DNA from: Naegleria gruberi
Lineage: Eukaryota
NCBI GenBank assembly: GCA_000004985.1
Contig: GG738877.1
Length of the DNA: 64,000 nucleotides
Strand: one strand, 5' to 3'
Shown here: piece by piece, positions 1 to 58,591 of the stretch
Numbering within the stretch: position 1 is the first letter of the stretch
How the letters are laid out: the number at the start of each line of letters is the position of its first letter
Position numbers and translations under genes: made by a program
The notes under the pieces: generated by a model
The model's database searches: none
The model's input: only the letters and a program-made list of their open reading frames with translations
What the model was told of the DNA's origin: nothing

Positions 1-333
1 CAAACCCAAACCCAAAGGCAAACCCAAACCCAAACCCAAACCCAAACCCAAACCCAAACCCAAACCCAAACCCAAACCCAAACCCAAACCCAAACCCAAA
101 CCCAAACCCAAACCCAAACCCAAACCCAAATCCAAACCCAAACCCAAACCCAAACCCAAACCCAAACCCAAACCCAAACCCAAACCCAAACCCAAACCCA
201 AACCCAAACCCAAACCCAAACCCAAACCCAAACCCAAACCCAAACCCAAACCCAAACCCAAACCCAAACCCAAACCCAAACCCAAACCCAAACCCAAACC
301 CAAACCCAAACCCAAACCCAAACCCAAACCCAG
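1..333. repeat. Terminal telomeric repeat array (CCCAAA)n, G-strand TTTGGG, with a single variant at ~131
   Basis: Perfect 6-nt periodicity read directly from the sequence. The C-rich strand is on top at the left end, the orientation expected for a left chromosome terminus. Confidence 0.9.
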
Positions 334-8095: not shown

Positions 8096-10144
8096 TTATA
8101 GAGTTATTTTGAAAACTTCAATTTCCTCAACTCTGAACTGGTGACTTCCAGCCAAATAACTTTCAGTTTGTTCATTTCTTTCTTGGAATCCTTTTGGCAA
8201 TTCAAAAGCTATACCAAAATTGGATTTTGAATTGTAGTTTAAATTGCAATCACTTGAAATTGTAAAATCATGACCTGGTTTGAGTAACATAACACCAAAG
8301 GTTGGTAATAAACCTTCTTGTAAAACGGTAGCATTCCGCAATGTAAAGGAACTTCTCTTGAATTTATGAAATTGTGCTCCTGATTCCTTTACAAATTTGA
8401 AAATAAATGCTGAACTATCTTCCACAACTTCTCTTTGTTTAGGAGATTTCCATGATTTTGAAGTAAAACCACCGAATATTTGATTGTGCTCTGCCGATTT
8501 GATAATTGTCAAAGTTGCACCTTGGTTATCACACTTTGAATGAAAGTCAATTGCTTTAAAACCATCCCTTGATCCTCTGTATAATAATTGTGGAACTAAT
8601 TGAGTGCCAGTATTCGAATACAATTCTTTTGAAATGGTGTCTGAATTCGTATCATCATAATAAATTTCATTAATAATATTAGATATCAAAGTGAAAGGAA
8701 TGAAACCCTTAATATTTGTGAAAACATTACTTGTTCCTTTTAAGGAAGTTAAAAGTTGAAATTCAACTTGTTCAAAACTACTTCCTTTAAAAGAAGATAA
8801 ATCTGTCACTTCTCTCAAATCTGCATTCTTGATAGTACAATTATTGAATACATTACCATTCATCAAATTTACATTTTCCAAGTTGCAATCTCTAATATTT
8901 GAACCAGTGAAATCACAAGATTTCATAAAACTGTTTGAAAAATTACAACCACTCAATTCACAATTTTGAAAATTGGTGTTTGATAAAGTGCAATGATTGA
9001 AATCACACCCTTTCAGATTACTTCCTTGAAATTGTGTCAAATTCAAATCCATTCCACTGAAATCATATCCACAAAATTCAGTCCCACGTAGATTGGAATA
9101 TTGAAGTAAATTCTTTCGAAGGTGTTGAATGCCAAATTGTTGACATGAACCAGCAAGCAATAGTTTAAATTTAACATCAATGCTCTTTTCCACAATTCCA
9201 AACTTTAGCCAATTAAGGATTGAATAAAATACAGTTAAATCACAATCAATGAAATAAATTGGGGCATCGAATTTTGAATTAAAAGATGTTTGATAACATG
9301 GATATTCACCTGTGAACATTTTCTTGAATACATTGTCAGATTCTCTGTCATTATGAATGAAATCTCCCAATGCAACTGTAATGACAGTTCCTCTGACATT
9401 TAAGTGAATTGGTTTGTTGCAATTTTCCAATTTCTCTCTAGTATAAACTTGGTTCGCAAAGTTTTTCTCTTTCAATTCCAATTGTTGAGTCAATATTTCA
9501 TTTCTTTGATTCCATTCTTGAAGCAACGTTTCTTTCTTTTCATTGAAACCACTTGTAATTTCCTCAACAAGTTTTTTGGTATCATTAGTCAACTTTTGAT
9601 TCAATTCTTCATATTTCCTTTCCAACTCATCTGATTTTTCTTGATAATCTTGTTGTAAACTCTTGAGTTTTTCTTGATAATCACCCTCAAGTTTCCTCTT
9701 TAATTCATCTGCCTCAAAATACGCCTCCAGAAAGGAGCAATACTTTTCCTGGTGGATTTTCAATTCTCCCCTCAAGACTACATTCTTACACATTCGACAT
9801 TGAACTTCCAATTTGTCCAACATGTTTTTAATACTCTTCACACTTGAACAATTCTTCTTGAAATCTTCACCTCTACAAATTGGACAATCATGAACATTTT
9901 CAACACAGGTGGAACAGAAGGTGCTGCCACAAGATCCGTGTGAGGTTGGATCGATAAAGGGAAGAAAACAAATGGGACAAATTAATTCTTCATCAATGTT
10001 CTTGTCGATGTATATGTATTGTGGATCTAGAGAAGAGGAGGAATCAGTATTCTCTGCACTTAAAGTGCTTTCATTATGCACTTGAGAATTGACTTTCATG
10101 TATTGCAACGAGATTGTTTTTTTTCCATAATTATTTGTTTCCAA
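8096..10144 (-). CDS. Multidomain RING finger - TRAF-type zinc finger/coiled coil - BTB/POZ (KCTD/T1-type) - pentapeptide-repeat - TLDc protein (KCTD9-like core)
   Basis: CPICFLPF...CPICR RING motif. The BTB region NVRGTVITVALGDF...YFIDCDLTVFYSILNWLKFG is present. Pentapeptide repeats (CDFNHCTLSNTNFQNCELSGCNFSNS...) follow. The C-terminal TLDc signature is LLYRGSRDGFKAIDFHSKCDNQGATLTIIKSAEHNQIFGGFTSKSW. Confidence 0.75.
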   Translation of the reverse strand: METNNYGKKTISLQYMKVNSQVHNESTLSAENTDSSSSLDPQYIYIDKNIDEELICPICFLPFIDPTSHGSCGSTFCSTCVENVHDCPICRGEDFKKNCSSVKSIKNMLDKLEVQCRMCKNVVLRGELKIHQEKYCSFLEAYFEADELKRKLEGDYQEKLKSLQQDYQEKSDELERKYEELNQKLTNDTKKLVEEITSGFNEKKETLLQEWNQRNEILTQQLELKEKNFANQVYTREKLENCNKPIHLNVRGTVITVALGDFIHNDRESDNVFKKMFTGEYPCYQTSFNSKFDAPIYFIDCDLTVFYSILNWLKFGIVEKSIDVKFKLLLAGSCQQFGIQHLRKNLLQYSNLRGTEFCGYDFSGMDLNLTQFQGSNLKGCDFNHCTLSNTNFQNCELSGCNFSNSFMKSCDFTGSNIRDCNLENVNLMNGNVFNNCTIKNADLREVTDLSSFKGSSFEQVEFQLLTSLKGTSNVFTNIKGFIPFTLISNIINEIYYDDTNSDTISKELYSNTGTQLVPQLLYRGSRDGFKAIDFHSKCDNQGATLTIIKSAEHNQIFGGFTSKSWKSPKQREVVEDSSAFIFKFVKESGAQFHKFKRSSFTLRNATVLQEGLLPTFGVMLLKPGHDFTISSDCNLNYNSKSNFGIAFELPKGFQERNEQTESYLAGSHQFRVEEIEVFKITL

Positions 10145-10291
10145 ACTTGGGAGATTCCTTCTTTAGAAAGTAGTTACATACAATCAGTTGTTTAAGATTT
10201 TAATTTAGACTAAATTCCAGTATTTCTTTTTGGGAAAGGGTTAATAAACCTTAAATTACTGCTCCAAATTCAAAGAGAGAGAAATAACAAT

Positions 10292-32720: not shown

Positions 32721-33758
32721 TTAGAAATACTTATGCCGAGTTAGAATTTTTACTTCTCTCAGTCGTGGTAAACTCTTTAAACAATCAATATCTTCAATAT
32801 TCAGTGAATTTTCACTTAAATCCAATAACTCTAAGTTAACTAATTTGGTCAGATAGTGAACTGCATCATCACTAATATGCATATAACTATTTACCAAATT
32901 CAATATTCTCAAATTCTGCATTTCAGAAATTACCTTCACGCCTTCATTGTCAATTAAATTTCCACTCAGCTCTAATTCAATCAATTTGTTCAAGTTTGTT
33001 AAATTTGAAACAGATCCAATCAAACAACAAGATGCATGCAAATGCGTCAAGTTAGACAATTTGCAAATATTACTGAATCCATCATCATGAATATGATTTC
33101 GACTAATATTCAGTTTCGTTAGAGTTTCAATTCGAGAAAGAGATTCACAACCATTCTCACCAATGTCATTATTCTCAACTAGCAAAATTTTCAAATTCTT
33201 CAATTCGGAGAGGTAGACACAAGCATCATCTTGTAAATCATTATTGGAAAGATTCAATTCCATTATTGATTGACAGTTTCGAATATTTTCACATCCAGAT
33301 CTTCCAACAAAATTACCATTCAAATTCAAATAGGTCAATTGAGTGAAATTTCCAATCCAAAGTGCATTTTCAAAGTCAGATTGAGTAATAGATAGCATTT
33401 CTAAATTAGTGAACTTGGAAATGTGCTCAAAACATTCTTTCAGGCAAAAAAACAAATTCAAACTCTTCAATCTTTGAAAATCTGTACAATATTTTACAAA
33501 AATTCCCAAAGATGAATTATCAGTCGAGCTAAATCCAACAATATTCAATAATCGTTGACTCTGACAATATTTTGCAAAACTTTGACAGTTCTTTTTCACA
33601 TCAATAATTAATTTACAATCGGCTGAAATTTGCAACCAATTTTTGCAAACGAGTGAACATTTGGTGATTATAAAATTACATTCCAAATATTTAGCAAATA
33701 TTTCATCACGTAATAATTCAACGGGTAGCTGTAAAATAGTACCGCACCTATCAGACAT
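32721..33758 (-). CDS. F-box/LRR-repeat protein (RNI-like leucine-rich repeats)
   Basis: N-terminal F-box-like LQLPVELLRDEIFAKYLECNFIITKCSLVCKNWLQI. It is followed by more than 8 LRRs (LNLSNNDLQDD..., LDLSENSLNIEDI...). Confidence 0.7.
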   Translation of the reverse strand: MSDRCGTILQLPVELLRDEIFAKYLECNFIITKCSLVCKNWLQISADCKLIIDVKKNCQSFAKYCQSQRLLNIVGFSSTDNSSLGIFVKYCTDFQRLKSLNLFFCLKECFEHISKFTNLEMLSITQSDFENALWIGNFTQLTYLNLNGNFVGRSGCENIRNCQSIMELNLSNNDLQDDACVYLSELKNLKILLVENNDIGENGCESLSRIETLTKLNISRNHIHDDGFSNICKLSNLTHLHASCCLIGSVSNLTNLNKLIELELSGNLIDNEGVKVISEMQNLRILNLVNSYMHISDDAVHYLTKLVNLELLDLSENSLNIEDIDCLKSLPRLREVKILTRHKYF

Positions 33759-34091
33759 TTTTTTCGGAATAATATTGAAAGTAAAACCTCTAGATTTGGT
33801 TAAATTGCCTTAGTTTAATTTTCGAATTTAAATCAATGAATAGTGAAACAGGAAAATGTGTGATCCATTTTATTCAATTCCTGCTTCAAACAGCTCTGTA
33901 TGTTAAGGAACTAGTCATGCATTTCTTTTATTGGAAAAAAATGAAGTCAAAACTGTGGAATCTTTCTCCATCAATATGATAGATAAAAGAGAGATATTTT
34001 AGAAAAAGATGCCCTTACATGTCTAGTTTATGCTGTTAAATAATAAAAGTTTAACTATACGTGGTTTAAGCAAAAATGTATTTCTATCAGA

Positions 34092-34162
34092 TGCGTCGAC
34101 CGGGAATTGAACCCGGGTCACGGCGATGGCAACGCCGTATTCTACCACTAAACCATCGACGC
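34092..34162 (-). tRNA. tRNA-Gly (anticodon GCC)
   Basis: The reverse complement GCGTCGATGGTTTAGTGGTAGAATACGGCGTTGCCATCGCCGTGACCCGGGTTCAATTCCCGGTCGACGCA folds as a cloverleaf. The anticodon loop is TTGCCAT and the T-loop is GGTTCAATTCC. Confidence 0.9.
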
Positions 34163-34360
34163 TTCTGGTTTAACAGAATGTAACCTTAATTCGTAACTAA
34201 AATAACAGAAAATTGTAAGAATAATGGTGAAAGATATTGATCCACATAGAGAATCATGAAAGAAGATTTGATGGAGCAAAACTGTAATTTTTAAAAAAGC
34301 AGATGTTAAATATTGGAGTTTGTTCTAATTCCATCCATTTTGTGTTAATACAATAAAAAA

Positions 34361-35260
34361 ATGGCAGCACAACAACAATTTTCTTATGGAGTGTGGTCCC
34401 TGATATTTTCCATGTTGGAACCTTTTGATAAGAGATCTAATGAAGAGAATTTAATAATGGAAAATATTAAGAGTTGGACTTGTTGTAGGAGCCGATCAAG
34501 ATCAATTCATGATGGTTTGAAATATGGAATAACAAGATTGGATTTGTCGGGATGTGTTTCTTTGCCGAGGAAAAAGATGGTTGCTCGTGCAATTAATCAA
34601 ATTGTGAATGCTAATTCCGTTACTAGTAATGGAGTAATGATAAAGACTTATGAGAGATGCTCATGGAATGATGAAGCCTTGATCAATAGTAGTGATTTGC
34701 TTAGGATGGAATTAGAGAGACAGGACAAGATTTGTGAATTATTGGTAAAATATTTAATTGAAAACTTTGCTTGTTTGACAGAATTGAACTTGAATGGTTT
34801 GCATCGATTAAGACAAGATCAATTGGAGAGTATTAGTTTTAATGAACTAAAAAGTCTATCAATTAGCCATTGTAGAAATGTGAAACAATTAAATCTAGAC
34901 AAATTTGGAAAATTGGAAAGGATTTCAATTCATGTATCACAAATTGAGTTGAGAATTAACTTGTTGGAGCAGATTGCAAACAAAGAGAATGAAAACTCTG
35001 AGAGAATTCCAGAGCTTGTTGTTGATGATGAAGGAGGATATGAGGTGATTATTAGAAATTGGTTGAGTCAAGCAACAATTCCCATCCATATATATATTGA
35101 TTATTCTTACAGGACAATTGATTTGGAACGAGTGTGCGAACGTTCAAGGGATGTTAGTATGATTAAACTTATATTCGCAGGAAAGGCATTGGAAAACGAA
35201 AGGTACTTGGTGGATTACAGCATTACCAAGGGCACAACCTTGCATTATGTTAAACCTTGA
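34361..35260 (+). CDS. Leucine-rich-repeat protein with a C-terminal ubiquitin-like domain (possible F-box-like N-terminus)
   Basis: LRR segments (LTELNLNGLHRLRQDQLESISFNELKSLSISHCRNVKQLNLDKFGKLERISIH). The C-terminal UBL IKLIFAGKALENERYLVDYSITKGTTLHYV resembles ubiquitin [29 protein letters not shown]. Confidence 0.55.
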   Translation: MAAQQQFSYGVWSLIFSMLEPFDKRSNEENLIMENIKSWTCCRSRSRSIHDGLKYGITRLDLSGCVSLPRKKMVARAINQIVNANSVTSNGVMIKTYERCSWNDEALINSSDLLRMELERQDKICELLVKYLIENFACLTELNLNGLHRLRQDQLESISFNELKSLSISHCRNVKQLNLDKFGKLERISIHVSQIELRINLLEQIANKENENSERIPELVVDDEGGYEVIIRNWLSQATIPIHIYIDYSYRTIDLERVCERSRDVSMIKLIFAGKALENERYLVDYSITKGTTLHYVKP

Positions 35261-35456
35261 ATACTTTAAATATCTTTAAAAGAATTCCAAATTAAATTTG
35301 AAATATTAAAATTATTATTAAATTCATCAAATAAAGATTTCCAAATTGAACCTTCCACACTTGATTTTATCATGACTTTTCACAGATAATATTATTAGTA
35401 TTACTAATTATAATTTAATATCATTTCTTCATTGTTATTTAATTGATTCATTCATT

Positions 35457-35672
35457 CTAATTTTCATTTGAATCTTCTACTTCTTCAGCACCTTCGGAAT
35501 TATCATCATCAAATTCCTCTTCAGAATCATCATATTCCGAAGTTAAATATTTTTCTTCCCACTTTTTGAAAAGTTCTTGATTGGTGGCTAGCAATTCCAA
35601 CATTTCTTCAATAGAGAGTGCTGGTTGGCTCATCACATATTCCTCCGTGAGTGGTTGTTTGGAATTTTGCAT
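35457..35672 (-). CDS. Small acidic hypothetical protein (71 aa). It may be an exon of a larger gene
   Basis: ORF only, with an E/D-rich tail. Confidence 0.25.
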   Translation of the reverse strand: MQNSKQPLTEEYVMSQPALSIEEMLELLATNQELFKKWEEKYLTSEYDDSEEEFDDDNSEGAEEVEDSNEN

Positions 35673-35888
35673 TTTTTTTTGAATTTTAAAGTTTCAATTA
35701 ATTGTTGAAGAATTTCTAATGCGGAATCTCAATAAGAAAGTTCTTCTTTAGAAACTATTTATTGTATTAATGTGTCATCATGAGTAAGATTTCGATAACT
35801 TAACATTGTAACAGTGAACTTTCTAAAAATAAAGGTCAAAAAAAATACTCAACTTAATTGTATTTGCAGAGATTGAACAGTTTACAAA

Positions 35889-36350
35889 ATGATGCAAATT
35901 TTTATTAAAACTCTCACAGGCAAGACAATTACTTTGCAAGTAGAGTCAATCAACCAAACAATAGAAAATATCAAATCCAAAGTTCAAGACAAGGAAGGAA
36001 TTTTAACAGATTACAAACTCTTCTTTGCAGGTCAACCAGTACATGATGGAATGCTAACAGATTACAATATTCAGAATGATTCAACTCTGCATTTAGTGTC
36101 AGGATTGAGAGGTGGTGTTCAAATACTTGTCAAGACATTGACTGGTAAAATTCTCACTTTGGAGGTTGAATCGAATGACACTATTGGAAATGTTAAATTA
36201 AAGATTCAAGATAAGGAAAATATTCCACCAGATCAACAACGAATTATATTTGCTGGTAAGGAATTGCAGGATGGAATCACCTTGTTGGATTCTAATGTTA
36301 TTCAAAAAGATTCCAATCTTCATTTGATTGTTAAGGCTAAAGGTGGCTAA
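35889..36350 (+). CDS. Tandem di-ubiquitin-like protein: two divergent ubiquitin folds (each ~76 aa). The first ends LRGG and the second ends KGG immediately before the stop
   Basis: Unit 1 is [48 protein letters not shown]...[12 protein letters not shown]. Unit 2 is [77 protein letters not shown]. Confidence 0.8.
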
Positions 36351-36465
36351 CAGTGTTCTAATTAAATTAATCATTGAATGAAAATGCAATTTATATCCAT
36401 GTTGCTGAAACTGGCTTTTTTTCGGTATAGTTTTTATTTAAATATCAGAAATTAAGGATTTCAAC

Positions 36466-36585
36466 GGCTACGGCCATATCACGATGAATGCACCTCATCC
36501 CGTCCGATTTGAGAAGTTAAGCATCGTAGAGCCACATCAGTACTGAGGTTGGAGACAACTTGGGAACCTGTGGTGCTGTAGTCTT
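36466..36585 (+). rRNA. 5S ribosomal RNA gene (copy 1)
   Basis: GGCTACGGCCATATCACG...CCCGTCCGATTTGAGAAGTTAAGC...GTACTGAGGTTGGAGAC...CTTGGGAA...GTGCTGTAGTC followed by TTTT. The 5'/3' ends pair to form helix I. Confidence 0.9.
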
Positions 36586-36699
36586 TTATTTCTTTTTATA
36601 TTTTTGCAGATTTTACACTTGTTTGATATCAACAATATTGGAAGCTTGTTTTTATTGGTTTTTCAATATTGATTCATTAAGTACTGCCATTTTACAAAA

Positions 36700-37232
36700 T
36701 TAGAAAGCATTAATCAACTTTTTAGCTTCAGAATCAGCAGATGGACTTTGTCTTTCATTAGCAACCTTCATAATAAGAGTCAAATTGCAATCCAAAGTGA
36801 CAACCAAATCAGTACCATTAACCTTGTAAGAATATCCAAGGAAACCAGAAGATTCCTTACTATCAGCATTGTGGACAACTCTGAAAATCAATTTTTCCAA
36901 TCCCATGAAAGCGTCCTTACAATCAGGATCCTTGATGAAAACCTTGGCAATTTCACTCATCTCAATCTTGGACTTTCAGTTAAGAATTTGATGCAATTAT
37001 TCAACAAGGTATCTTCAGCAAATCTATCACCATACTTGTATTTGGTTTCAGTTGGCAATGCAGCAAGAGAAGCCCAATCCAACAAGATGATCATCTTTGA
37101 ATTGACTTGTTGAAGATTCTTAGTAGCAGGAACAATACGATTGTTGAATAATTCACGAACCACCTTCTTGAATGCCAAACCACTTCCACACATGTTTTCA
37201 TTGAATAATTCTTCGTGAGTTTGTTGAGTCAT
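36700..37232 (-). CDS. Hypothetical small protein encoded by two abutting ORFs (36957..37232 and 36700..36960) offset by -1. Function unknown
   Basis: Both ORFs have coding-like composition. The junction is AGATGAGTG (stop overlapping ATG). The short A3 run upstream could hide a 1-nt deletion. Confidence 0.35.
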
Positions 37233-38695
37233 TTTGATATAAAGCTTGTTGAGGAGTTTTCAGATACAATTCAATATTGAATATTGTTTTTTTGTTTTGT
37301 CTTTATCATAAAGAATGGTCAATTTGAATTTATAGTAATTTTTACTGAGTAAGATTACAATATTTACAATGGAGTTTAATAGAGTTCAATGGTTTTCTGA
37401 GAATTGAATTGGTTTAACATTTGTGGAACAACCTTATTGAGAAGTCAGTAAGAGGAATGGTAACACCTCAGTATCATCTAACTATCGAATAGAACTCAAC
37501 AACAACAATTGGATATGGAAAAGGGAGGATATTAGTTTCCAATGTTCTCATTTAACCCTCTTGATCGTGTTGCTTAAAATAATTAGTTGGAAACTCATTG
37601 TAACTTTTGGAACTACAAAAACGAAAAAAACAACATGGACATGTTAACATGCTTTCATGCAACATGCAAGAATGCAAGTTGTGCTATCAAAGCTAATAGG
37701 AACCCAAAATATTCATTTCAAATAGGATTTTATTTCATTATAGAACAAATTACAACTATTGCTTATATGAGGATGAACAACTTGCACATTATTACAAAAC
37801 CTGAATACAGTGTTACGGAGGAATGTTATCGAAAGGGAACGATTCTGTTGAATATGACAATTTATTTGATTCGGAGGTATTCCATTAGATCAACAGAATT
37901 AAATATATTTACAGTGAATGTCTAGGTTGTACAAAATTTGGAGTTGATTGATTTATCTAAAAGATTACCATTATTTGATATTGATACATCTAATATTATA
38001 AATGGAACTAGACATTGATTATCATCTTGCAAATTTAAATGGTAAAGAAATTTCAGTGAAAAGATCTTCGAAAAATTCAATTGAAAAGAGCTAAACAACA
38101 ATCAGCCACCACTAAGAAGATTACCAAATCGAAAAAGATGTAAATTAACTTGTAACTAATTACGTAGTAAATTGTAAATGTTTTGAAATAGATGAAGTTT
38201 CAATTTAGAATTGATCAGAATATGAGAAACCAAAATTTGCATCAAACAATTCAACATGGCAAAAGTTCAATAAATACTAGGTTGATCAACCATATCTATT
38301 TCTTCAAACAAAACCTGAACCAACAAGATTCTGTCTTCGTTGCCTTCACTGTTCATACAGTCAAAGACTGTAGCGGGACAGTCGCCATATTCCTGGCAGG
38401 CTTCCTGTCGTATCTAATTAATTGAATTTCTATTGACATTGCTTCCAAGTAGCGATCTAGTAGAATTCGACTCTACATTACACAACTTAAAGGCAGTTAT
38501 AAATATGGTTACTAAAGTTCAAAGTGTTAGATCATTAAGTAATCATCTTGGATGGTTGGAAATAATGCCCCAAGTGTTAAAGTTATTGATAACAATAAGG
38601 ATGAACAAAATGGTTCTTTCATCCACCCTCGCTTCTATGTTCGAGAAAGCTCACTCATCTTAATAGATTAAATATCGTAAATTAAGGTGATGAAT

Positions 38696-38815
38696 GGCTA
38701 CGGCCATATCACGATGAATGCACCTCATCCCGTCCGATTTGAGAAGTTAAGCATCGTCGAGCCACATCAGTACTGAGGTTGGAGACAACTTGGGAACCTG
38801 TGGTGCTGTAGTCTT
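38696..38815 (+). rRNA. 5S ribosomal RNA gene (copy 2)
   Basis: Identical to copy 1 except for one position (A/C). It shares the upstream AAATTAAGG motif and the downstream T-run. Confidence 0.9.
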
Positions 38816-38963
38816 TTTATTTAGCTTTTTATAAGGATAATTCATTTGCTACCTGTTCAATTTTTGATCTTTTCAAACTTTTATTCAAGTACCACAACAC
38901 CATGCATCCAAGGTAATACAGAATCGCTCCACATATACAACCTCTTATCCAATTCTCTCGAAA

Positions 38964-39160
38964 ACATCTTTCTCGGCCAATTGGCTTTGATCGAGTGTAG
39001 TATCTGTTCTTTTCAGTTTAATAGCTGAAAGCAGCCCACGGGTTGCAATTACTATTAACTCAATTTTTTGTAGGGTCCAGAGTTGTGCTTGATTGCACAC
39101 TTTGGTTGGTTTCAATCAGACATTGCACTGTCCGTCAGAATTGGAGCTATCCCACTCTAT
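38964..39160 (+). ncRNA. U2 spliceosomal snRNA
   Basis: ATCTTTCTCGGCCAATTGGCTTTGATCGAGTGTAGTATCTGTTCTTTTCAGTTTAATAGCTGAAAG matches the conserved U2 5' end. It contains the GUGUAGUA branch-point-binding sequence, stem IIa and the Sm site AATTTTTTG (~39063), followed by two 3' stem-loops. The 3' end is approximate. Confidence 0.75.
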
Positions 39161-39862
39161 TGAAAAGTGAAAAATTACAAGAGTATTTATTGACTTTACA
39201 TAGTAAGACGACCATTAGTTTAATTGGACGAAAACCGTTGTCTTGTTGGAAATATTGATGAGAGCAAAGACATGTTTTTTCTCTTCCAGGAGAGAGAAAA
39301 TATATAGAATTGATATCTGGTCAAGCCAGCAATTACTTTCTTTCCGTTGTTTGTTTCGAGTAAAAGGTTGAGATACAGTAGTACTTGTTGTTGTAAGAGC
39401 ACCTTGTTGTTGATGAGATGATAGGAATAATGAAACAGAAATGAACAAAGGTTGGAACCAAAGCCTTCCTAGGAAGGTATCGATAGCGTTGCCATTTTTT
39501 ATTAAATTTAAATTAAATTAAAAACCATTTTAAATATCTAACGGTTTGCTTCTTCCCTTCATCACAATAAGAAAATGACTTGAACACAAATGTTATATTA
39601 TTCACTTTTAATACCACTGTATAGTGATACCAAACACAATAGTCTTAACGGAGAGATGACATCAACACCTCGCTGCTGAATTTTTCGATCCACTCTTGAA
39701 AATTTCCTCTTATCCGTGGAAAATCCTCTTCCATCTTTCTCTGGAAACAACAACCTATCATCAATACTATTAAACTATTATTACGTTTGACAATTAACTA
39801 AAAAACAACACATCATAATAACATATAATTATTATTATTTTACATCTAAATCTAGGAACATT

Positions 39863-42544
39863 ATGCTGCTAACAAACTCTACATCAACAACAATGAATTC
39901 ATCATCAATAACAACTTCATCAATTAGAGCCAATGATAAGGATGGCTTACTTTCTCGTGTTCTGGTCTTTCAAACTTCCACAAACATGAGTGGAAAGAAC
40001 AAGTATTGGCAATTTTGCATCATTTCCCAACACGATCACGACGATGATAATTCTTCTTCATCTTCTGATGAATCAACATCAAGTAATACAACAACAGCAT
40101 CAACAGACACTAACAATAATTTATTCTCCTCCTCCACTACCACAACAGCAACTATATACTATCTTCAATCTAGGCACGGTATTACTACCAAAGACTCACA
40201 CTCTGGTAAAATTCATACAAGTGGAGGAGCTTGTTATCAGAAAGCCTTTTCAAGTGAATTACAAGCACAGAAGGAACTCTTGTTAAGAATTCACTCTAAA
40301 CTCACTGATGGTTATGTGTGGATTTCAAATAGAAAGAAGAGAAAGTTTCCAATAGAAGAATTAACTCAACAAGTGAATGATAAACTTCAAGAACAATACG
40401 ACAAGTTTAAGAATATGTTTTCCAATAAGAAGAAGAATTCAAATAGTTTACCTAGGGTGGCTTCTCCACAAAGATTTACTAACATGGTCATTAGAAGAAT
40501 GGGATTGAGTCCTAGTAGAAACATTCCTTCTCTCAAGACAAGAATTGATAAGAAAAAGAGAAAGCAAATGGATAAATCCTTCAATAGAGAACAATTACTC
40601 AAGTTGGCTGAATTGTCTTCTTCATCATCATCGGAAGAGGAAGAAGAAGATAAAAGACCAAGAACTGTTGCCAATAAGAGAAAAAGAAACAAACAACAAA
40701 AGAGAAAGTACAAATCTGCTTCATCTTCATCAGAAGAAAATCTTTTGTCTGAAGATGAAATTACTCCAAGAATTAGAACATCCAAACAAGTTAAAAAGAA
40801 GAGGAAACCAACAGTATCTAGTCCTGCTTCTAATAATTCTACAAGTGTTGCTCCAACTAGATTATCATTTGGTAATATGAATGAAAATGATTCAGATTCA
40901 GATTCTGAACATGGTGATAATGATGATGGTTTATCTGGATTTGAAAGAATTTCTACACCTGAAAGGTTTAGATCTTTTGATAGAGTTCACTCACCTGGAA
41001 TGGTTTCTGAAATGGACTCTGATTATGAGAATAGATCATTTAGTGCTTCTCCAATGATTAATAATCATCGTAATAACGATCAAGATGATGATAGTTTCTT
41101 GTTGGGTGGAGGTGGAGCTGATTTTATGGATTCATCACCATTTGATTATTCAAGTATTCCAACAGTTGAGTCATCTAGTACAATTTCCAAATTGGAAGAA
41201 AAGATTAAAAAGTTGAATGAGAATCTTTCAAAGGAAAGTGAAAGAGCTAACATGCTTTCTCTTGAGAAGAATTATTTAGAAAATCAATTGAAGGAACAAC
41301 AAGAATTAGCTTGTCAACAAAAACTCTCACATGACAAGTTGGTTGAAGAACTCTCACAACAATTACAACAAATTTCTAATGATCAATTAGAAGATACCAA
41401 GAAATTCCTTGCCAGAGAAGAGGAATTTAAAATAAGAGAGGAAGTATTGTATAATAGAGAACAACAAGTCTCATCTAGGGAATATTTATTGAACGAGATG
41501 GAAATCAAATTACAACAAGAACAAGAAAAGTTGACAAGACAATTAGAAGAATTGTCTTTCCAAAAAACTAATATCGAAACTATGGAAAAGGAATTGAATG
41601 AAAGAAGTCAACAAGTATTGCAATCTGAAAAGGATCTCCAAAATAGAATTGAGCAACACAACTTGACAAAAGACGAGGAAACCAACAAGTTGAATCAAAT
41701 GGAGCAAGATTTTTACGAAACCATGCAAAGATTAGAACAGGAAGTTCAAAATAAGTGGTCAGAATTTGAAACTTTGAGAAATAATTTTGAACTCGATATG
41801 GAAAGAAGAAATCAAGAAATTTCTCAACTTGATCTCGAATTGGAACAAAAGAGGGTAAGAGTAGAAGCTGATTTAGAAAGTGTCAAACAATCATTTGAAC
41901 AAGAAAAGAAACACCACCTCTATAATATTGAAACAAGACAATTACAATTGAATTCTCTCGATGAATCTATCAATGAAAAACTTGCTGATTTGGAACTGAG
42001 ACAAGCTTCTTTCACAACAGAAAAGGAGTCCTTCCAAGCTTTGATCAAACAACGTGAACAAGAATTGAATGAAAAGCAAGGTCAACAAGAACTTCAAGCT
42101 CAACATTTGAAATTTTTAAAGTACCAATTAGATACAAGAGAAAAATCATTTGAAGAAGCTTCTACACAGTTTAACGCAATCAGGTTAGAGACTGAAAATT
42201 CTCTCAAATTGAAATCAGACACTCTTCACAATCATTTACAAGAACTCTCAGAAAGAGAAAAGTCATTTGAAGTTTCTCTTGCCAAATTCGAAAAGGAAAA
42301 GTCACAATTCTATGAAATTATCAAGAAGAAAACAATCATGGAAAATCAATGTAAAATTTTGGCTCAACAATTGAATGAAAAACAAGTGGAATTCCAACAT
42401 GCTCTCTCTGAATGGATGGCATCAACCTCCTCTCAAGATGAATACTCAATCATGGCAACTGATGAGGAAACTTCTATAATTTCCTCTGCTCCAATTCCTT
42501 CCTATATGGCCAATGATGATACAGATAATAGCCAATATTTTTAA
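39863..42544 (+). CDS. WGR-like domain plus long coiled-coil protein, with a K/R/S-rich middle region
   Basis: The N-terminal KYWQFCIISQHD...IYYLQSRHGITTKDSHSGKIHTSGGACYQKAFSSELQAQKELLLRIHSKLTDGYVW fits the WGR pattern. The C-terminal ~450 aa are heptad-rich (EEKIKKLNENLSKESERANMLSLEKNYLENQLKEQQEL...). Confidence 0.55.
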   Translation: MLLTNSTSTTMNSSSITTSSIRANDKDGLLSRVLVFQTSTNMSGKNKYWQFCIISQHDHDDDNSSSSSDESTSSNTTTASTDTNNNLFSSSTTTTATIYYLQSRHGITTKDSHSGKIHTSGGACYQKAFSSELQAQKELLLRIHSKLTDGYVWISNRKKRKFPIEELTQQVNDKLQEQYDKFKNMFSNKKKNSNSLPRVASPQRFTNMVIRRMGLSPSRNIPSLKTRIDKKKRKQMDKSFNREQLLKLAELSSSSSSEEEEEDKRPRTVANKRKRNKQQKRKYKSASSSSEENLLSEDEITPRIRTSKQVKKKRKPTVSSPASNNSTSVAPTRLSFGNMNENDSDSDSEHGDNDDGLSGFERISTPERFRSFDRVHSPGMVSEMDSDYENRSFSASPMINNHRNNDQDDDSFLLGGGGADFMDSSPFDYSSIPTVESSSTISKLEEKIKKLNENLSKESERANMLSLEKNYLENQLKEQQELACQQKLSHDKLVEELSQQLQQISNDQLEDTKKFLAREEEFKIREEVLYNREQQVSSREYLLNEMEIKLQQEQEKLTRQLEELSFQKTNIETMEKELNERSQQVLQSEKDLQNRIEQHNLTKDEETNKLNQMEQDFYETMQRLEQEVQNKWSEFETLRNNFELDMERRNQEISQLDLELEQKRVRVEADLESVKQSFEQEKKHHLYNIETRQLQLNSLDESINEKLADLELRQASFTTEKESFQALIKQREQELNEKQGQQELQAQHLKFLKYQLDTREKSFEEASTQFNAIRLETENSLKLKSDTLHNHLQELSEREKSFEVSLAKFEKEKSQFYEIIKKKTIMENQCKILAQQLNEKQVEFQHALSEWMASTSSQDEYSIMATDEETSIISSAPIPSYMANDDTDNSQYF

Positions 42545-51768: not shown

Positions 51769-51840
51769 TCCCGTGTAGTCCAATGGCTAGGATACCTGGC
51801 TTTCACCCAGGAGGTCCGGGTTCAATTCCCGGCATGGGAG
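51769..51840 (+). tRNA. tRNA-Glu (anticodon TTC)
   Basis: TCCCGTGTAGTCCAATGGCTAGGATACCTGGCTTTCACCCAGGAGGTCCGGGTTCAATTCCCGGCATGGGAG. The anticodon loop is CTTTCAC and the arms are canonical. Confidence 0.9.
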
Positions 51841-57619: not shown

Positions 57620-58520
57620 TGTGGTGGTGGTAAATGTGTTAAAAGGAAAGTGTTGAGAGCAATATAAAAATCTATCAATGTGAAATTTCACAGTAGTGGA
57701 GGTTGGATTATAGTAGTGCAAATATATAATTTAGCAGCTATCTAGCAAGAGGTGAATGGTGAGTGGAAAGAGGCGTATCTAATCAATAGAAAGAGAAAAT
57801 GGAGGAAAATAACGTTGTTTACACAAGTCAAGATTCAATATATGATTTTACAAAAATTACTATTAAGCTGATGATGAATAGTCCTTTGATGATTATTCAA
57901 TAATCTACACTACAAGTAGGTTATTACAGATGATTAATTCGCACTTGTTACTATTACTACTCTACTAGTATTATGAGTGATAAACAATGACGAACAAACG
58001 ACAACCAACAACAACAACAATATGAAACAAAAACAGCAGCAACAATCTAGAAGCGCGTTTCTACGAACAACAAAAATGTTTCAGCAGCAAGCAGCGGCGG
58101 TGATGATGATGATGGTGTTGTACAGCAGGACCAAGAGTGTCGTCGTACACGCGAATGTTGGTGATGGTTGGTGGTTTGTTGATATTTTTTTGTGTGATGA
58201 TGAAATGAATTTATTCGGGCTTGGGTTTTTTGTGAGGGTGTTGTTGGAGAGTTGTTTGTTGAGGCGGTCGTTGTCGTTGTACACAACCACAAGAACTGGA
58301 AGGGTAAATGTGTGGTGTTCTTTCTTTTGAGTTGTTGTGGTTTTGGACTTATTGGGGTGTTGAGGAAAATGTAGTGGTAAGTGGTTCAAATATAAATTGT
58401 TTTTTATTGATAATTATATGTAATTTCCAATGGGTTGTTCAGGAAAAAAAAGAGGTTCCTTAGGCATGTAAAGAGGTAAAGAGCCTTAATATGAAAAGAA
58501 TAACAAAGAATTAAAAGAAG

Positions 58521-58591
58521 GGGACCAGTGGGAATCGAACCCACGGCCTCTCGCACCCAAAGCGAGAATCATACCACTAGACCATGGTCCC
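58521..58591 (-). tRNA. tRNA-Pro (anticodon TGG)
   Basis: The reverse complement is GGGACCATGGTCTAGTGGTATGATTCTCGCTTTGGGTGCGAGAGGCCGTGGGTTCGATTCCCACTGGTCCC. The anticodon loop is TTTGGGT. Confidence 0.9.

What the first reader, a model, noticed from the sequence alone, without database searches (positions are those of the whole stretch)
36466..39160. A linked 5S rRNA - 5S rRNA - U2 snRNA cluster interspersed with a protein gene; 5S genes are dispersed rather than arrayed
Two 5S genes (36466-36585 and 38696-38815) differ by a single nucleotide and lie 2.1 kb apart on the same strand. Both are preceded by the same AAATTAAGG element about 12-20 nt upstream and followed by T4-5. Only 150 nt downstream of the second copy is a U2 snRNA gene, which the ORF track cannot see. 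A small minus-strand protein gene sits between the 5S copies. 5S-snRNA/SL-RNA linkage is known in a few lineages, but U2-5S linkage is uncommon. The shared upstream element may be a local promoter or duplication scar.
Basis: seen in the sequence. Interest (0 to 1): 0.55.

Follow-up and report, generated by a model that had tools for sequence, protein, structure and literature searches.

The report
Naegleria 5S gene pair beside U2
Two ordinary copies of the amoeba Naegleria gruberi's scattered 5S ribosomal RNA genes sit next to a genuine U2 spliceosomal RNA gene; the 5S copies were already catalogued, and nothing shows that the adjacency to U2 is more than a local coincidence.

Summary
Rfam finds 5S rRNA at 36466-36584 and 38696-38814 (106.5 and 105.4 bits, threshold 38) and U2 snRNA at 38964-39154 (123.6 bits, threshold 46), all on the + strand. 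The window is Naegleria gruberi scaffold_33:1-64000. Both 5S genes appear, at coordinates matching to within 3 nt, in Table S1 of Feng et al. 2012 (279 putative 5S genes). My analysis of that table shows a dispersed family: 117 scaffolds, 207 singletons, 30 pairs, 4 triplets, and only one gap under 1 kb. This 2,230-nt pair is typical. The shared flank is a 20-nt two-part element, TTAAATATC-NN-AAATTAAGG, at -28..-9. Its AAATT core recurs upstream of a 5S gene at an unrelated N. lovaniensis locus, and AATTAAGG also precedes the tRNA-Gly gene here. This favours an upstream Pol III promoter over a duplication scar. U2 is most likely a separate unit: T5 runs lie between it and the 5S gene, T4 and T6 runs lie inside it, and no T run follows it. 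I could not test whether U2 and 5S are adjacent elsewhere in the genome. The locus around the nearest downstream gene's best N. fowleri homologue has neither RNA. Tandem 5S-U2 linkage is already known in Diplonema, oysters and sole. Interest is low to moderate.

The parts
36438..36457 (+). Two-part upstream element of 5S copy 1. TTAAATATC (TATA-like) lies at -28..-20 and AAATTAAGG at -17..-9.
   Evidence: identical in both halves to the element upstream of copy 2, and found nowhere else in the window within 3 mismatches.
36466..36584 (+). 5S rRNA gene, copy 1. It is a minor variant with A at nt 63 (36528).
   Evidence: RF00001, 106.5 bits against a threshold of 38. It is row R33502 (scaffold_33 36469-36585) of Table S1 in PMC3369914. 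Box A (AGTTAAGC, nt 50-57) and a box C-like stretch (nt 80-97) were read directly from the sequence.
36584..36605 (+). Pol III terminator region of copy 1: T4 at 36584-36587, then T5 at 36593-36597 and T5 at 36601-36605.
36703..37232 (-). Frameshifted copy of a multi-copy N. gruberi 'predicted protein' family with no Pfam domain. It converges on 5S copy 1.
   Evidence: One search finds the paralogues P0001-P0008. In one search, residues 1-90 of intact P0001 align in frame -3 and residues 93-178 in frame -2, with 4 nt missing at 36961-36962. Searches find no Pfam family.
38668..38687 (+). Two-part upstream element of 5S copy 2: TTAAATATC-GT-AAATTAAGG.
38696..38814 (+). 5S rRNA gene, copy 2. It falls in the modal similarity class and has C at nt 63 (38758).
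   Evidence: 105.4 bits. It is row R33784 (scaffold_33 38699-38815). The environmental Naegleria copy in L007 and the N. lovaniensis copy also have C at this position.
38814..38830 (+). Pol III terminator of copy 2: T5 at 38814-38818 and T5 at 38826-38830. These separate it from U2.
38933..38937 (+). ATATA, about 30 nt upstream of the probable U2 5' end (A at 38966). It is a candidate TATA-like promoter element of the U2 gene, and this is inference only.
   Evidence: Read from the sequence. The 5S two-part element is absent from this spacer.
38964..39154 (+). U2 snRNA gene. The branch-point recognition GUAGUA lies at 38997-39002 and the Sm site AAUUUUUUG at about 39062-39070. Stem-loops I, IIa, IIb, III and IV are present.
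   Evidence: RF00004, 123.6 bits against a threshold of 46, full-length alignment. MFE -57.3 kcal/mol, z = -3.0, with the expected hairpins; internal T4 (39010-39013) and T6 (39064-39069).
34092..34191 (-). tRNA-Gly(GCC) gene at 34092-34162, with AATTAAGG at -29..-22 (34184-34191). It is the nearest other Pol III gene, 2.3 kb upstream of 5S copy 1.

Best explanation
This is a stretch of Naegleria gruberi nuclear DNA (scaffold_33, about 35 kb from a chromosome end). It carries three independent small-RNA transcription units. The two 5S genes are ordinary members of the species' dispersed 5S family of about 279 copies. That family occurs mostly as single genes, with a minority in loose pairs or triplets 1-5 kb apart among unrelated genes. 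Each 5S gene is most likely transcribed by RNA polymerase III from an internal control region (box A at nt 50-57 and a box C-like stretch at nt 80-97), helped by a short upstream promoter. That promoter has a TATA-like TTAAATATC at -28..-20 and AAATTAAGG at -17..-9. Transcription stops at the T4-T5 runs directly after the gene. The U2 gene 149 nt downstream is a separate unit with its own promoter in the spacer. It is probably Pol II-type, because Pol III would stop at the T5 runs before it and at the T4 and T6 runs inside it. The adjacency of 5S and U2 is best read as a by-product of scattering hundreds of 5S genes through the short intergenic spaces of a gene-dense genome, not as a co-regulated or repeated 5S-U2 unit. 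Shown here: the gene identities, the organism, the dispersal and the conservation of the flanking element. Inferred: which polymerase transcribes what, and that the adjacency has no function.
For: Identity of the RNAs: scores two to three times the thresholds; U2 fold.

Functional constraint on the 5S gene: the N. lovaniensis 5S differs from the N. gruberi one by two compensatory base-pair changes, CCAC/GUGG to CUGC/GCAG.

Organism and prior record: one search hits N. gruberi proteins at 90-100% identity. Searches show rows for scaffold_33 at 36469-36585 and 38699-38815, matching the window coordinates. Searches show terminal (CCCAAA)n, which is the reported candidate N. gruberi telomere repeat TTTGGG.

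Dispersal:
- 279 genes lie on 117 scaffolds, and the median same-scaffold gap is 33.9 kb.
- Only 1 of 162 same-scaffold gaps is under 1 kb.
- At a 6-kb linkage cut-off there are 207 singletons, 30 pairs and 4 triplets.
- 22% of genes have a neighbour within 5 kb, against 6.6% expected at random.
- The 2,230-nt gap in this window is the 12th smallest.

Environmental relatives and N. lovaniensis also carry single 5S genes embedded in unique sequence.

Promoter reading:
- Similarity between the two copies stops at -28 and just past the T run.
- It consists of two perfect 9-mers separated and followed by diverged bases, rather than uniform decay.
- GAAATTGGG and ATGAAT recur at the same distance upstream of the N. 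lovaniensis 5S gene at an unrelated locus.
- An environmental Naegleria copy has AAATTATAGAATTAAC at the same place.
- AATTAAGG also lies 22-29 nt upstream of tRNA-Gly. Three of its 8 occurrences in the window are sense-oriented just upstream of Pol III genes.
- Feng et al. independently reported an internal control region and a TATA box for N. gruberi 5S genes.

Separate U2 unit: T runs as, no T run after U2, and no 5S-type element upstream of U2.

No repeat unit containing both genes: one search finds only the 150-nt 5S repeat.

No conservation: the N. fowleri locus (10 kb each side) and the N. lovaniensis locus around the best homologue of the gene downstream of U2 contain no 5S, U2 or tRNA.
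Against: A U2 gene lying within 150 nt of one of 279 5S genes in 41 Mb has a naive probability of about 0.2% (0.05% for same strand and downstream). Pure coincidence is therefore not comfortable unless U2 is multi-copy or small-RNA genes share preferred sites. I could not count U2 genes or examine other U2 loci.

The promoter inference rests on four Naegleria-type upstream sequences. One is interrupted by an assembly gap at -30..-21, and the genome is AT-rich, so short AT-rich matches are cheap.

The two copies in the window are not independent if they arose by local duplication.

Polymerase assignment is inferred from T runs only.

The negative synteny result is weak. P0009 is only 28% identical, and the neighbouring genes differ between species.
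Confidence: 0.7

Rival explanations
1. The 5S-U2 adjacency is a real, recurrent or inherited linkage. It could be a relic of a discobid 5S-U2(-SL RNA) unit like the one in Diplonema papillatum. Alternatively, 5S genes may preferentially settle next to other small-RNA genes (U2, tRNA) because of shared chromatin or an insertion preference.
For: The naive chance of such proximity is about 0.05-0.2% per U2 gene. A tRNA-Gly gene lies 2.3 kb upstream, so four small-RNA genes fall within 5.1 kb. Diplonema, also in Discoba, has SL RNA-5S-U2 tandem repeats. 5S genes are known to associate with other multigene families.
Against: There is no repeated unit: only 150 nt around each 5S gene is duplicated. 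Fifteen other 5S loci of Naegleria and Naegleria-like organisms show no U2; these are 14 metagenome loci, of which only L007 is Naegleria-type, plus the N. lovaniensis locus L019. The homologous neighbourhood in N. fowleri has neither gene. Valach et al. state that the Diplonema unit seems to be absent even in other diplonemids, which argues against deep ancestry.
Confidence: 0.15
2. The shared 28 nt upstream of the two 5S genes is a duplication scar. One copy arose from the other, or both from a common source, by DNA-level duplication of a roughly 150-nt segment, and the flank has no promoter role.
For: The similarity is a single contiguous 150-nt block at 95% identity. The two copies are neighbours, and loose pairs are over-represented genome-wide (22% against 6.6%), which suggests local duplication.
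Against: The mismatches are clustered: two perfect 9-mers, with 7 of the 10 remaining positions different. The AAATT core and the -6..-1 ATGAAT recur upstream of a 5S gene in another species at an unrelated locus. AATTAAGG also precedes tRNA-Gly. A TATA box upstream of N. gruberi 5S genes was reported independently. Duplication and promoter function are also not mutually exclusive.
Confidence: 0.12
3. U2 is transcribed by Pol III and depends on the upstream 5S gene's internal promoter. This would be analogous to trypanosomatid U-snRNA genes, which use the A and B boxes of a companion tRNA gene (recalled from my own knowledge of Nakaar et al. and Fantoni et al., 1994; not checked here).
For: Naegleria belongs to Discoba, as trypanosomatids do. 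The companion gene lies about 150 nt upstream. An ATATA lies at about -30 of U2.
Against: T4 and T6 runs inside U2 and the lack of a T run at its 3' end are incompatible with efficient Pol III transcription, given that the adjacent 5S genes terminate at T4-T5. The 5S gene has the same orientation as U2, not the divergent orientation of the trypanosomatid system. The Sm site is canonical.
Confidence: 0.03

Closest known systems
The N. gruberi 5S rRNA gene family as catalogued by Feng et al. 2012 (PLoS One 7:e36878, PMC3369914, Table S1)
   Same: These are the same genes: scaffold_33 36469-36585 and 38699-38815 are two of the 279 entries. That paper also reports an internal control region, an upstream TATA box, T-run terminators, no linkage to the rDNA unit and no detectable TFIIIA.
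   Different: The paper scores N. gruberi as 'tandem arrangement: Y', whereas its own coordinates show a dispersed family with loose pairs. It mentions neither the neighbouring U2 gene nor the AAATTAAGG block.
The Diplonema papillatum SL RNA-5S rRNA-U2 snRNA tandem repeat (Valach et al. 2023, PMC10161547)
   Same: 5S and U2 genes are immediate neighbours in a member of Discoba.
   Different: In Diplonema the genes form a head-to-tail repeat unit, up to 27 in a row, with 163 U2 copies and an SL RNA gene. Here there is a single U2, no SL RNA and no repeat unit, and the 5S copies are separated by unrelated sequence.
Tandem 5S rDNA-U2 snDNA arrays in animals: Crassostrea oysters (Cross & Rebordinos 2005) and Solea senegalensis 5S-U1-U2-U5 (both as cited in PMC3464664)
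   Same: Physical linkage of 5S and U2 genes, which are transcribed by different polymerases.
   Different: Those are long tandem arrays evolving in concert. This is one adjacency within a dispersed family.
Dispersed 5S genes with an upstream TATA-like element in fungi (Neurospora crassa, Schizosaccharomyces pombe) and the -28 TATA of plant 5S genes.
   Same: Scattered single 5S genes whose only shared flank is a short AT-rich element about 25-30 nt upstream, together with an internal control region and a T-run terminator.
   Different: The second block, AAATTAAGG at -17..-9, has no described counterpart that I know of. TFIIIA was reported as undetectable in N. gruberi.

Membership tests
5S rRNA (Rfam RF00001) | Covariance-model score at or above the gathering threshold over the full model. 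| tested here: met
   106.5 and 105.4 bits against 38, model positions 1-120.
5S rRNA (Rfam RF00001) | Helices maintained by compensatory change between species. | tested here: met
   between N. gruberi and N. lovaniensis, CCAC/GUGG becomes CUGC/GCAG (two double changes), and a closing G-U becomes G-C.
Pol III type-1 (5S) gene | Internal control region (box A, box C) and a T-run terminator. | tested here: met
   AGTTAAGC at nt 50-57 fits the box A consensus quoted in PMC3369914. Nt 80-97, GAGGTTGGAGACAACTTG, fits the box C consensus with 2 mismatches (read). T4/T5 runs are shown.
Pol III type-1 (5S) gene | Dependence on TFIIIA. | not testable with these tools
   Feng et al. report that BLAST finds no TFIIIA in N. 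gruberi. TFIIIA is poorly conserved, so this is not proof of absence.
U2 snRNA (Rfam RF00004) | Covariance-model score at or above the gathering threshold over the full model. | tested here: met
   123.6 bits against 46, model positions 1-192.
U2 snRNA (Rfam RF00004) | Branch-point recognition sequence GUAGUA, a single-stranded Sm site, and stem-loops I, IIa, IIb, III and IV. | tested here: met
   GTAGTA lies at 38997-39002 and AATTTTTTG at about 39062-39070. The hairpins appear in the alignment and the fold.
U2 snRNA (Rfam RF00004) | Expressed, capped and assembled into an snRNP. | not testable with these tools
   No RNA data were available.
5S-linked multigene repeat unit (Diplonema, oyster and sole type) | 5S and U2 contained in one unit that is repeated head to tail. 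| tested here: not met
   only the 150-nt 5S segment is repeated; one U2 in 64 kb. The sequence between the 5S copies is an unrelated gene.
5S-linked multigene repeat unit (Diplonema, oyster and sole type) | The association recurs at most copies in the genome. | not testable with these tools
   The N. gruberi assembly could not be reached. Collection scans with Naegleria-type U2 patterns found nothing. Fifteen other Naegleria or Naegleria-like 5S loci lack U2.
Dispersed 5S gene family | Copies lie on many chromosomes or scaffolds, separated by unrelated sequence, with no arrays. | tested here: met
   on the coordinates: 117 scaffolds, median gap 33.9 kb, and 1 of 162 gaps under 1 kb.

The most novel reading that the evidence does not exclude
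AATTAAGG (core AAATT) may be a previously undescribed, Naegleria-wide upstream promoter element for Pol III genes. It is present upstream of the 5S genes and of at least one tRNA gene. It could recruit TFIIIB directly and help explain how 5S genes are transcribed in a lineage where no TFIIIA has been found. In addition, or alternatively, small-RNA genes transcribed by different polymerases (5S, tRNA, U2) may co-locate non-randomly in this genome.
Probability: 0.2. Interest if true: 0.45.

Novelty: new member of a known kind. Interest (0 to 1): 0.22.

Why it matters
As it stands, the finding mainly improves annotation. It places a U2 gene, and the exact promoter-proximal sequence of two already listed 5S genes, on N. 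gruberi scaffold_33.

It also corrects a published summary. The N. gruberi 5S genes are dispersed with loose pairs, not tandemly arrayed.

If the short upstream element proves general, it would give a concrete handle on Pol III promoter architecture in Heterolobosea, a deep-branching lineage reported to lack TFIIIA.

If U2-5S adjacency proved recurrent, it would add a non-tandem case to the list of 5S linkages used to argue about how 5S genes move around genomes.

Tried and rejected
1. Fetching other N. gruberi scaffolds through exact-protein look-ups failed. The N. gruberi assembly is not in the gene-position index (P0001-P0003 and a protein from the window). Genome-wide U2 counting was therefore impossible.

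2. A Naegleria-type U2 pattern found nothing in metagenome contigs. A shorter U2 pattern found nothing in viral contigs or in bacterial and archaeal genome contigs. A 27-nt 5S pattern found nothing in genome or viral contigs.

3. The second metagenome scan used a 23-nt 5S pattern and gave 14 loci. Only L007 is Naegleria-type. The VFQM, VFQO, VAPL and LLBY contigs carry 5S genes about 75% identical, from unidentified organisms. I used them only as a loose comparison. Seven of the nine VFQM/VFQO contigs with readable upstream sequence have a TATA-like box at -31..-23 (read).

4. I used the last protein search on a six-frame 'pseudo-protein' of U2 and 5S, to catch gene models that run over these RNAs. 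It gave one hit, a 5S locus in N. lovaniensis, and no U2 locus.

5. I first considered an intron or programmed frameshift in the gene between the 5S copies. I rejected this in favour of a 4-nt deletion relative to intact paralogues.

6. My initial guess of a budding yeast, and then of a dictyostelid, was rejected on the Pfam content (PAS-cyclase, DUF4116) and on the protein hits.

7. A retroposition origin for the 5S copies is unlikely. There is no A-rich tail or evident target-site duplication, and the similarity includes 28 nt upstream of the transcription start.

8. A permissive Rfam scan of 33000-41000 found no further RNA genes. ORFs in 37300-38690 have no Pfam match.

9. The sigma-70 promoter and terminator scan is irrelevant to a eukaryote and was ignored.
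Full report
**1. The observation**

A scan of the whole window against Rfam at curated thresholds returns six RNAs.
- 5S rRNA lies at 36466-36584 (106.5 bits) and at 38696-38814 (105.4 bits). The threshold is 38.
- U2 snRNA lies at 38964-39154 (123.6 bits, threshold 46, full-length alignment).
- Three tRNA genes are present: Gly-GCC at 34092-34162 (-), Glu-TTC at 51769-51840 (+) and Pro-TGG at 58520-58591 (-). One search confirms these.

The two 5S copies differ only at 5S nt 63, with A at 36528 and C at 38758. They lie 2,230 nt apart on the same strand. U2 begins 149 nt after the second copy.

U2 has the branch-point recognition GUAGUA (38997-39002). It also has a canonical Sm site, AAUUUUUUG, and the expected hairpins (alignment). 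In one search the fold has an MFE of -57.3 kcal/mol and z = -3.0.

A permissive Rfam scan of 33000-41000 adds nothing.

**2. Organism and prior record**

Several results identify the organism.
- The window is 33% GC and gene-dense, with long ORFs in the standard code.
- Pfam shows a PAS-adenylate cyclase and a protein with 13 DUF4116 repeats.
- The gene between the 5S copies hits only Naegleria gruberi 'predicted proteins', at 90-100% identity, plus two environmental sequences.

Feng et al. 2012 (PMC3369914) list 279 putative N. gruberi 5S genes. Two rows of their Table S1 read scaffold_33 36469-36585 and scaffold_33 38699-38815. These match the window coordinates. The window is therefore scaffold_33:1-64000 of the JGI assembly, and both 5S genes are already catalogued.

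Consistent with this, the window starts with (CCCAAA)n. This is the complement of TTTGGG, the candidate N. gruberi telomere repeat (PMC3622300).

The N. gruberi genome was also included in the 2008 computational snRNA screen (PMC2396436). I found no paper in the held library that mentions the 5S-U2 adjacency.

**3. Dispersed or arrayed?**

I parsed the published coordinates.
- The 279 entries lie on 117 scaffolds.
- Among 162 same-scaffold neighbour gaps, the minimum is 462 nt and the median is 33.9 kb. Only one gap is under 1 kb.
- At a 6-kb linkage cut-off there are 207 singletons, 30 pairs and 4 triplets.
- 22% of genes have a neighbour within 5 kb. The expectation for random placement on 41 Mb is 6.6%.

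The family is dispersed, with an excess of loose pairs. The pair in this window is a typical example; its gap is the 12th smallest. 'Tandem arrangement: Y' in Table 1 of Feng et al. is not borne out by their own table.

Copy 2 falls in the modal similarity class of that table (161 of 279 rows, by my count). Copy 1 falls in a class one mismatch lower. This agrees with C at nt 63 being the common state, as it is in the environmental copy L007 and in N. lovaniensis.

Relatives look similar.
- A metagenome scan with a 23-nt 5S pattern gave 14 contigs, each with a single 5S gene and no U2 or tRNA. Only L007 is Naegleria-type.
- A 20.9-kb N. lovaniensis locus has one 5S gene among protein genes.
- That N. 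lovaniensis copy differs from the N. gruberi gene by two compensatory base-pair changes, so both are under structural constraint.

**4. The shared flank**

The repeat around the two genes is 150 nt at 95% identity, spanning 36438-36587 and 38668-38817. Alignment with 80-nt flanks shows that similarity stops at -28 upstream and just after the T run downstream.

Within -28..-1 the matches are not evenly spread. TTAAATATC (-28..-20) and AAATTAAGG (-17..-9) are both perfect, while 7 of the other 10 positions differ. The 20-nt element occurs only at these two places in the window, even allowing three mismatches.

Three independent comparisons bear on its function.
- The N. lovaniensis 5S gene sits at an unrelated locus. 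It has TTGAAATTGGGTAAATGAAT at -20..-1, against CGTAAATTAAGGTGATGAAT in copy 2. Its -30..-21 is an assembly gap.
- The environmental Naegleria copy L007 has GAAATTATAGAATTAAC over the same interval.
- AATTAAGG also lies 22-29 nt upstream of the tRNA-Gly gene. Three of its eight occurrences in the window are sense-oriented just upstream of Pol III genes.

Feng et al. also reported a TATA box and an internal control region for these genes. Box A (AGTTAAGC, nt 50-57) and a box C-like stretch (nt 80-97) can be read in the sequence.

I therefore favour an upstream Pol III promoter element over a mere duplication scar. The sample is small and AT-rich, and the AATTAAGG observation is post hoc.

**5. 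How U2 relates to the 5S gene**

- Between 5S copy 2 and U2 there are T5 runs at 38814-38818 and 38826-38830, with further T4-T5 runs beyond.
- U2 itself contains T4 (39010-39013) and T6 (39064-39069, in the Sm site).
- No T run follows U2's 3' end.

The neighbouring 5S genes evidently terminate at T4-T5. Pol III would therefore neither read through into U2 nor complete it. U2 is most likely an independent Pol II-type snRNA gene with its own promoter in the 149-nt spacer. An ATATA lies at about -30 of its probable start, but nothing could be compared with it. The 5S upstream element is absent from this spacer. A trypanosomatid-style dependence on a companion Pol III gene is therefore unlikely.

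**6. Is the adjacency meaningful?**

Naively, a given point falls within 150 nt of one of 279 5S genes in 41 Mb with a probability of about 0.2%. Chance is therefore not a comfortable explanation unless U2 is multi-copy or small-RNA genes share preferred sites. A tRNA gene lies 2.3 kb upstream as well.

Against a structured linkage:
- No repeat unit contains both genes.
- None of 15 other Naegleria or Naegleria-like 5S loci has a U2.
- The loci around the best N. fowleri and N. lovaniensis homologues of the gene just downstream of U2 contain no 5S, U2 or tRNA. This last test is weak, because identity is only 28-36% and gene order is not conserved.

The decisive test is a scan of the whole assembly for U2 and its neighbours, and I could not run it.

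**7. Comparison with known cases**

5S genes are known to associate with other multigene families, including snRNA genes.
- 5S-U2 tandem arrays are described in Crassostrea oysters.
- 5S-U1-U2-U5 arrays are described in Solea senegalensis.
- Within Discoba, Diplonema papillatum has an SL RNA-5S-U2 tandem repeat, which its authors call exceptional.

The present case shares only the adjacency. It fails the defining feature of those systems, a repeated unit. It is best filed as a further, non-tandem instance of a known kind of linkage within an already catalogued dispersed 5S family.

**8. The intervening gene**

The minus-strand gene at 36703-37232 belongs to a family with at least six N. gruberi paralogues and no Pfam domain.

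Relative to the intact paralogue P0001, this copy lacks 4 nt at 36961-36962. Residues 1-90 align in frame -3 and residues 93-178 in frame -2. The JGI model P0003 hides this behind a 50-nt 'intron'. The copy is either a young pseudogene or carries an assembly error.

The two environmental homologues (L001, L002) have no 5S gene next to them. The family is therefore not systematically 5S-linked.

**9. Verdict**

The finding is real and correctly read, but largely ordinary. It consists of two catalogued members of a dispersed 5S family, a bona fide U2 gene next door, and a short upstream element that is probably the 5S upstream promoter. The open points are whether U2-5S proximity recurs and whether AATTAAGG is a general Pol III upstream element in Naegleria. 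Both could be settled by simple whole-genome scans.

Noticed in passing
window 1-332 and 1803-2236 (N gap 1061-1801): There are two tracts of (CCCAAA)n, of about 55 and 72 units, in the same orientation and separated by 0.7 kb of unique sequence and a run of N. TTTGGG is the reported candidate N. gruberi telomere repeat, so the scaffold starts at a chromosome end. Two tracts across a gap suggest that two telomere-bearing contigs were scaffolded together. The ORFs listed at 963-2289 are artefacts of the N run.
   Followed up: partly
window 34184-34191 (-), upstream of tRNA-Gly 34092-34162: AATTAAGG is the core of the 5S upstream element. It also lies 22-29 nt upstream of the tRNA-Gly gene. Three of its 8 occurrences in the window (4.1 expected) are sense-oriented just upstream of Pol III genes. 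It is absent upstream of tRNA-Glu, tRNA-Pro and U2.
   Followed up: partly
window 36703-37232 (-), frameshift at 36961-36962: The gene between the 5S copies lacks 4 nt relative to its intact paralogue P0001. The public model P0003 masks this with a 50-nt intron. P0002 and P0008 look like similarly patched models of near-identical paralogues on other scaffolds. This is a multi-copy, Naegleria-specific family of unknown function, with several decayed copies.
   Followed up: partly
L019 10001-10933 (N. lovaniensis PYSW02000026.1), with a 5S gene at 10102-10220 (-): The annotated N. lovaniensis Kelch-domain protein C9374_006095 (P0011) includes a 5S rRNA gene on the opposite strand within its first coding stretch. 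This is almost certainly a gene-model error. A 10-N assembly gap lies at -30..-21 of that 5S gene.
   Followed up: yes
L003-L006, L008-L012, L014, L015 (metagenome contigs VFQM010... and VFQO010...): An unidentified eukaryote in these metagenomes has single, dispersed 5S genes about 75% identical to the Naegleria 5S. Seven of the nine with readable upstream sequence have a TATA-like box (ACTATWWA or TACAWAWA) at -31..-23. Most have a pyrimidine run just before +1. I did not identify the organism.
   Followed up: no
PMC3369914, Table 1 against Table S1: The paper scores N. gruberi 5S genes as tandemly arranged. Its own coordinate table has only one neighbour gap under 1 kb among 162, and 207 of 241 clusters are single genes. 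About 16 of the 279 entries are short (80-112 nt), low-similarity fragments.
   Followed up: yes
window 37233-38667: About 1.4 kb between the start of the paralogue gene and the second 5S gene has no ORF with a Pfam match and no Rfam hit. Its content is unexplained. It may be promoter sequence or a decayed gene.
   Followed up: partly
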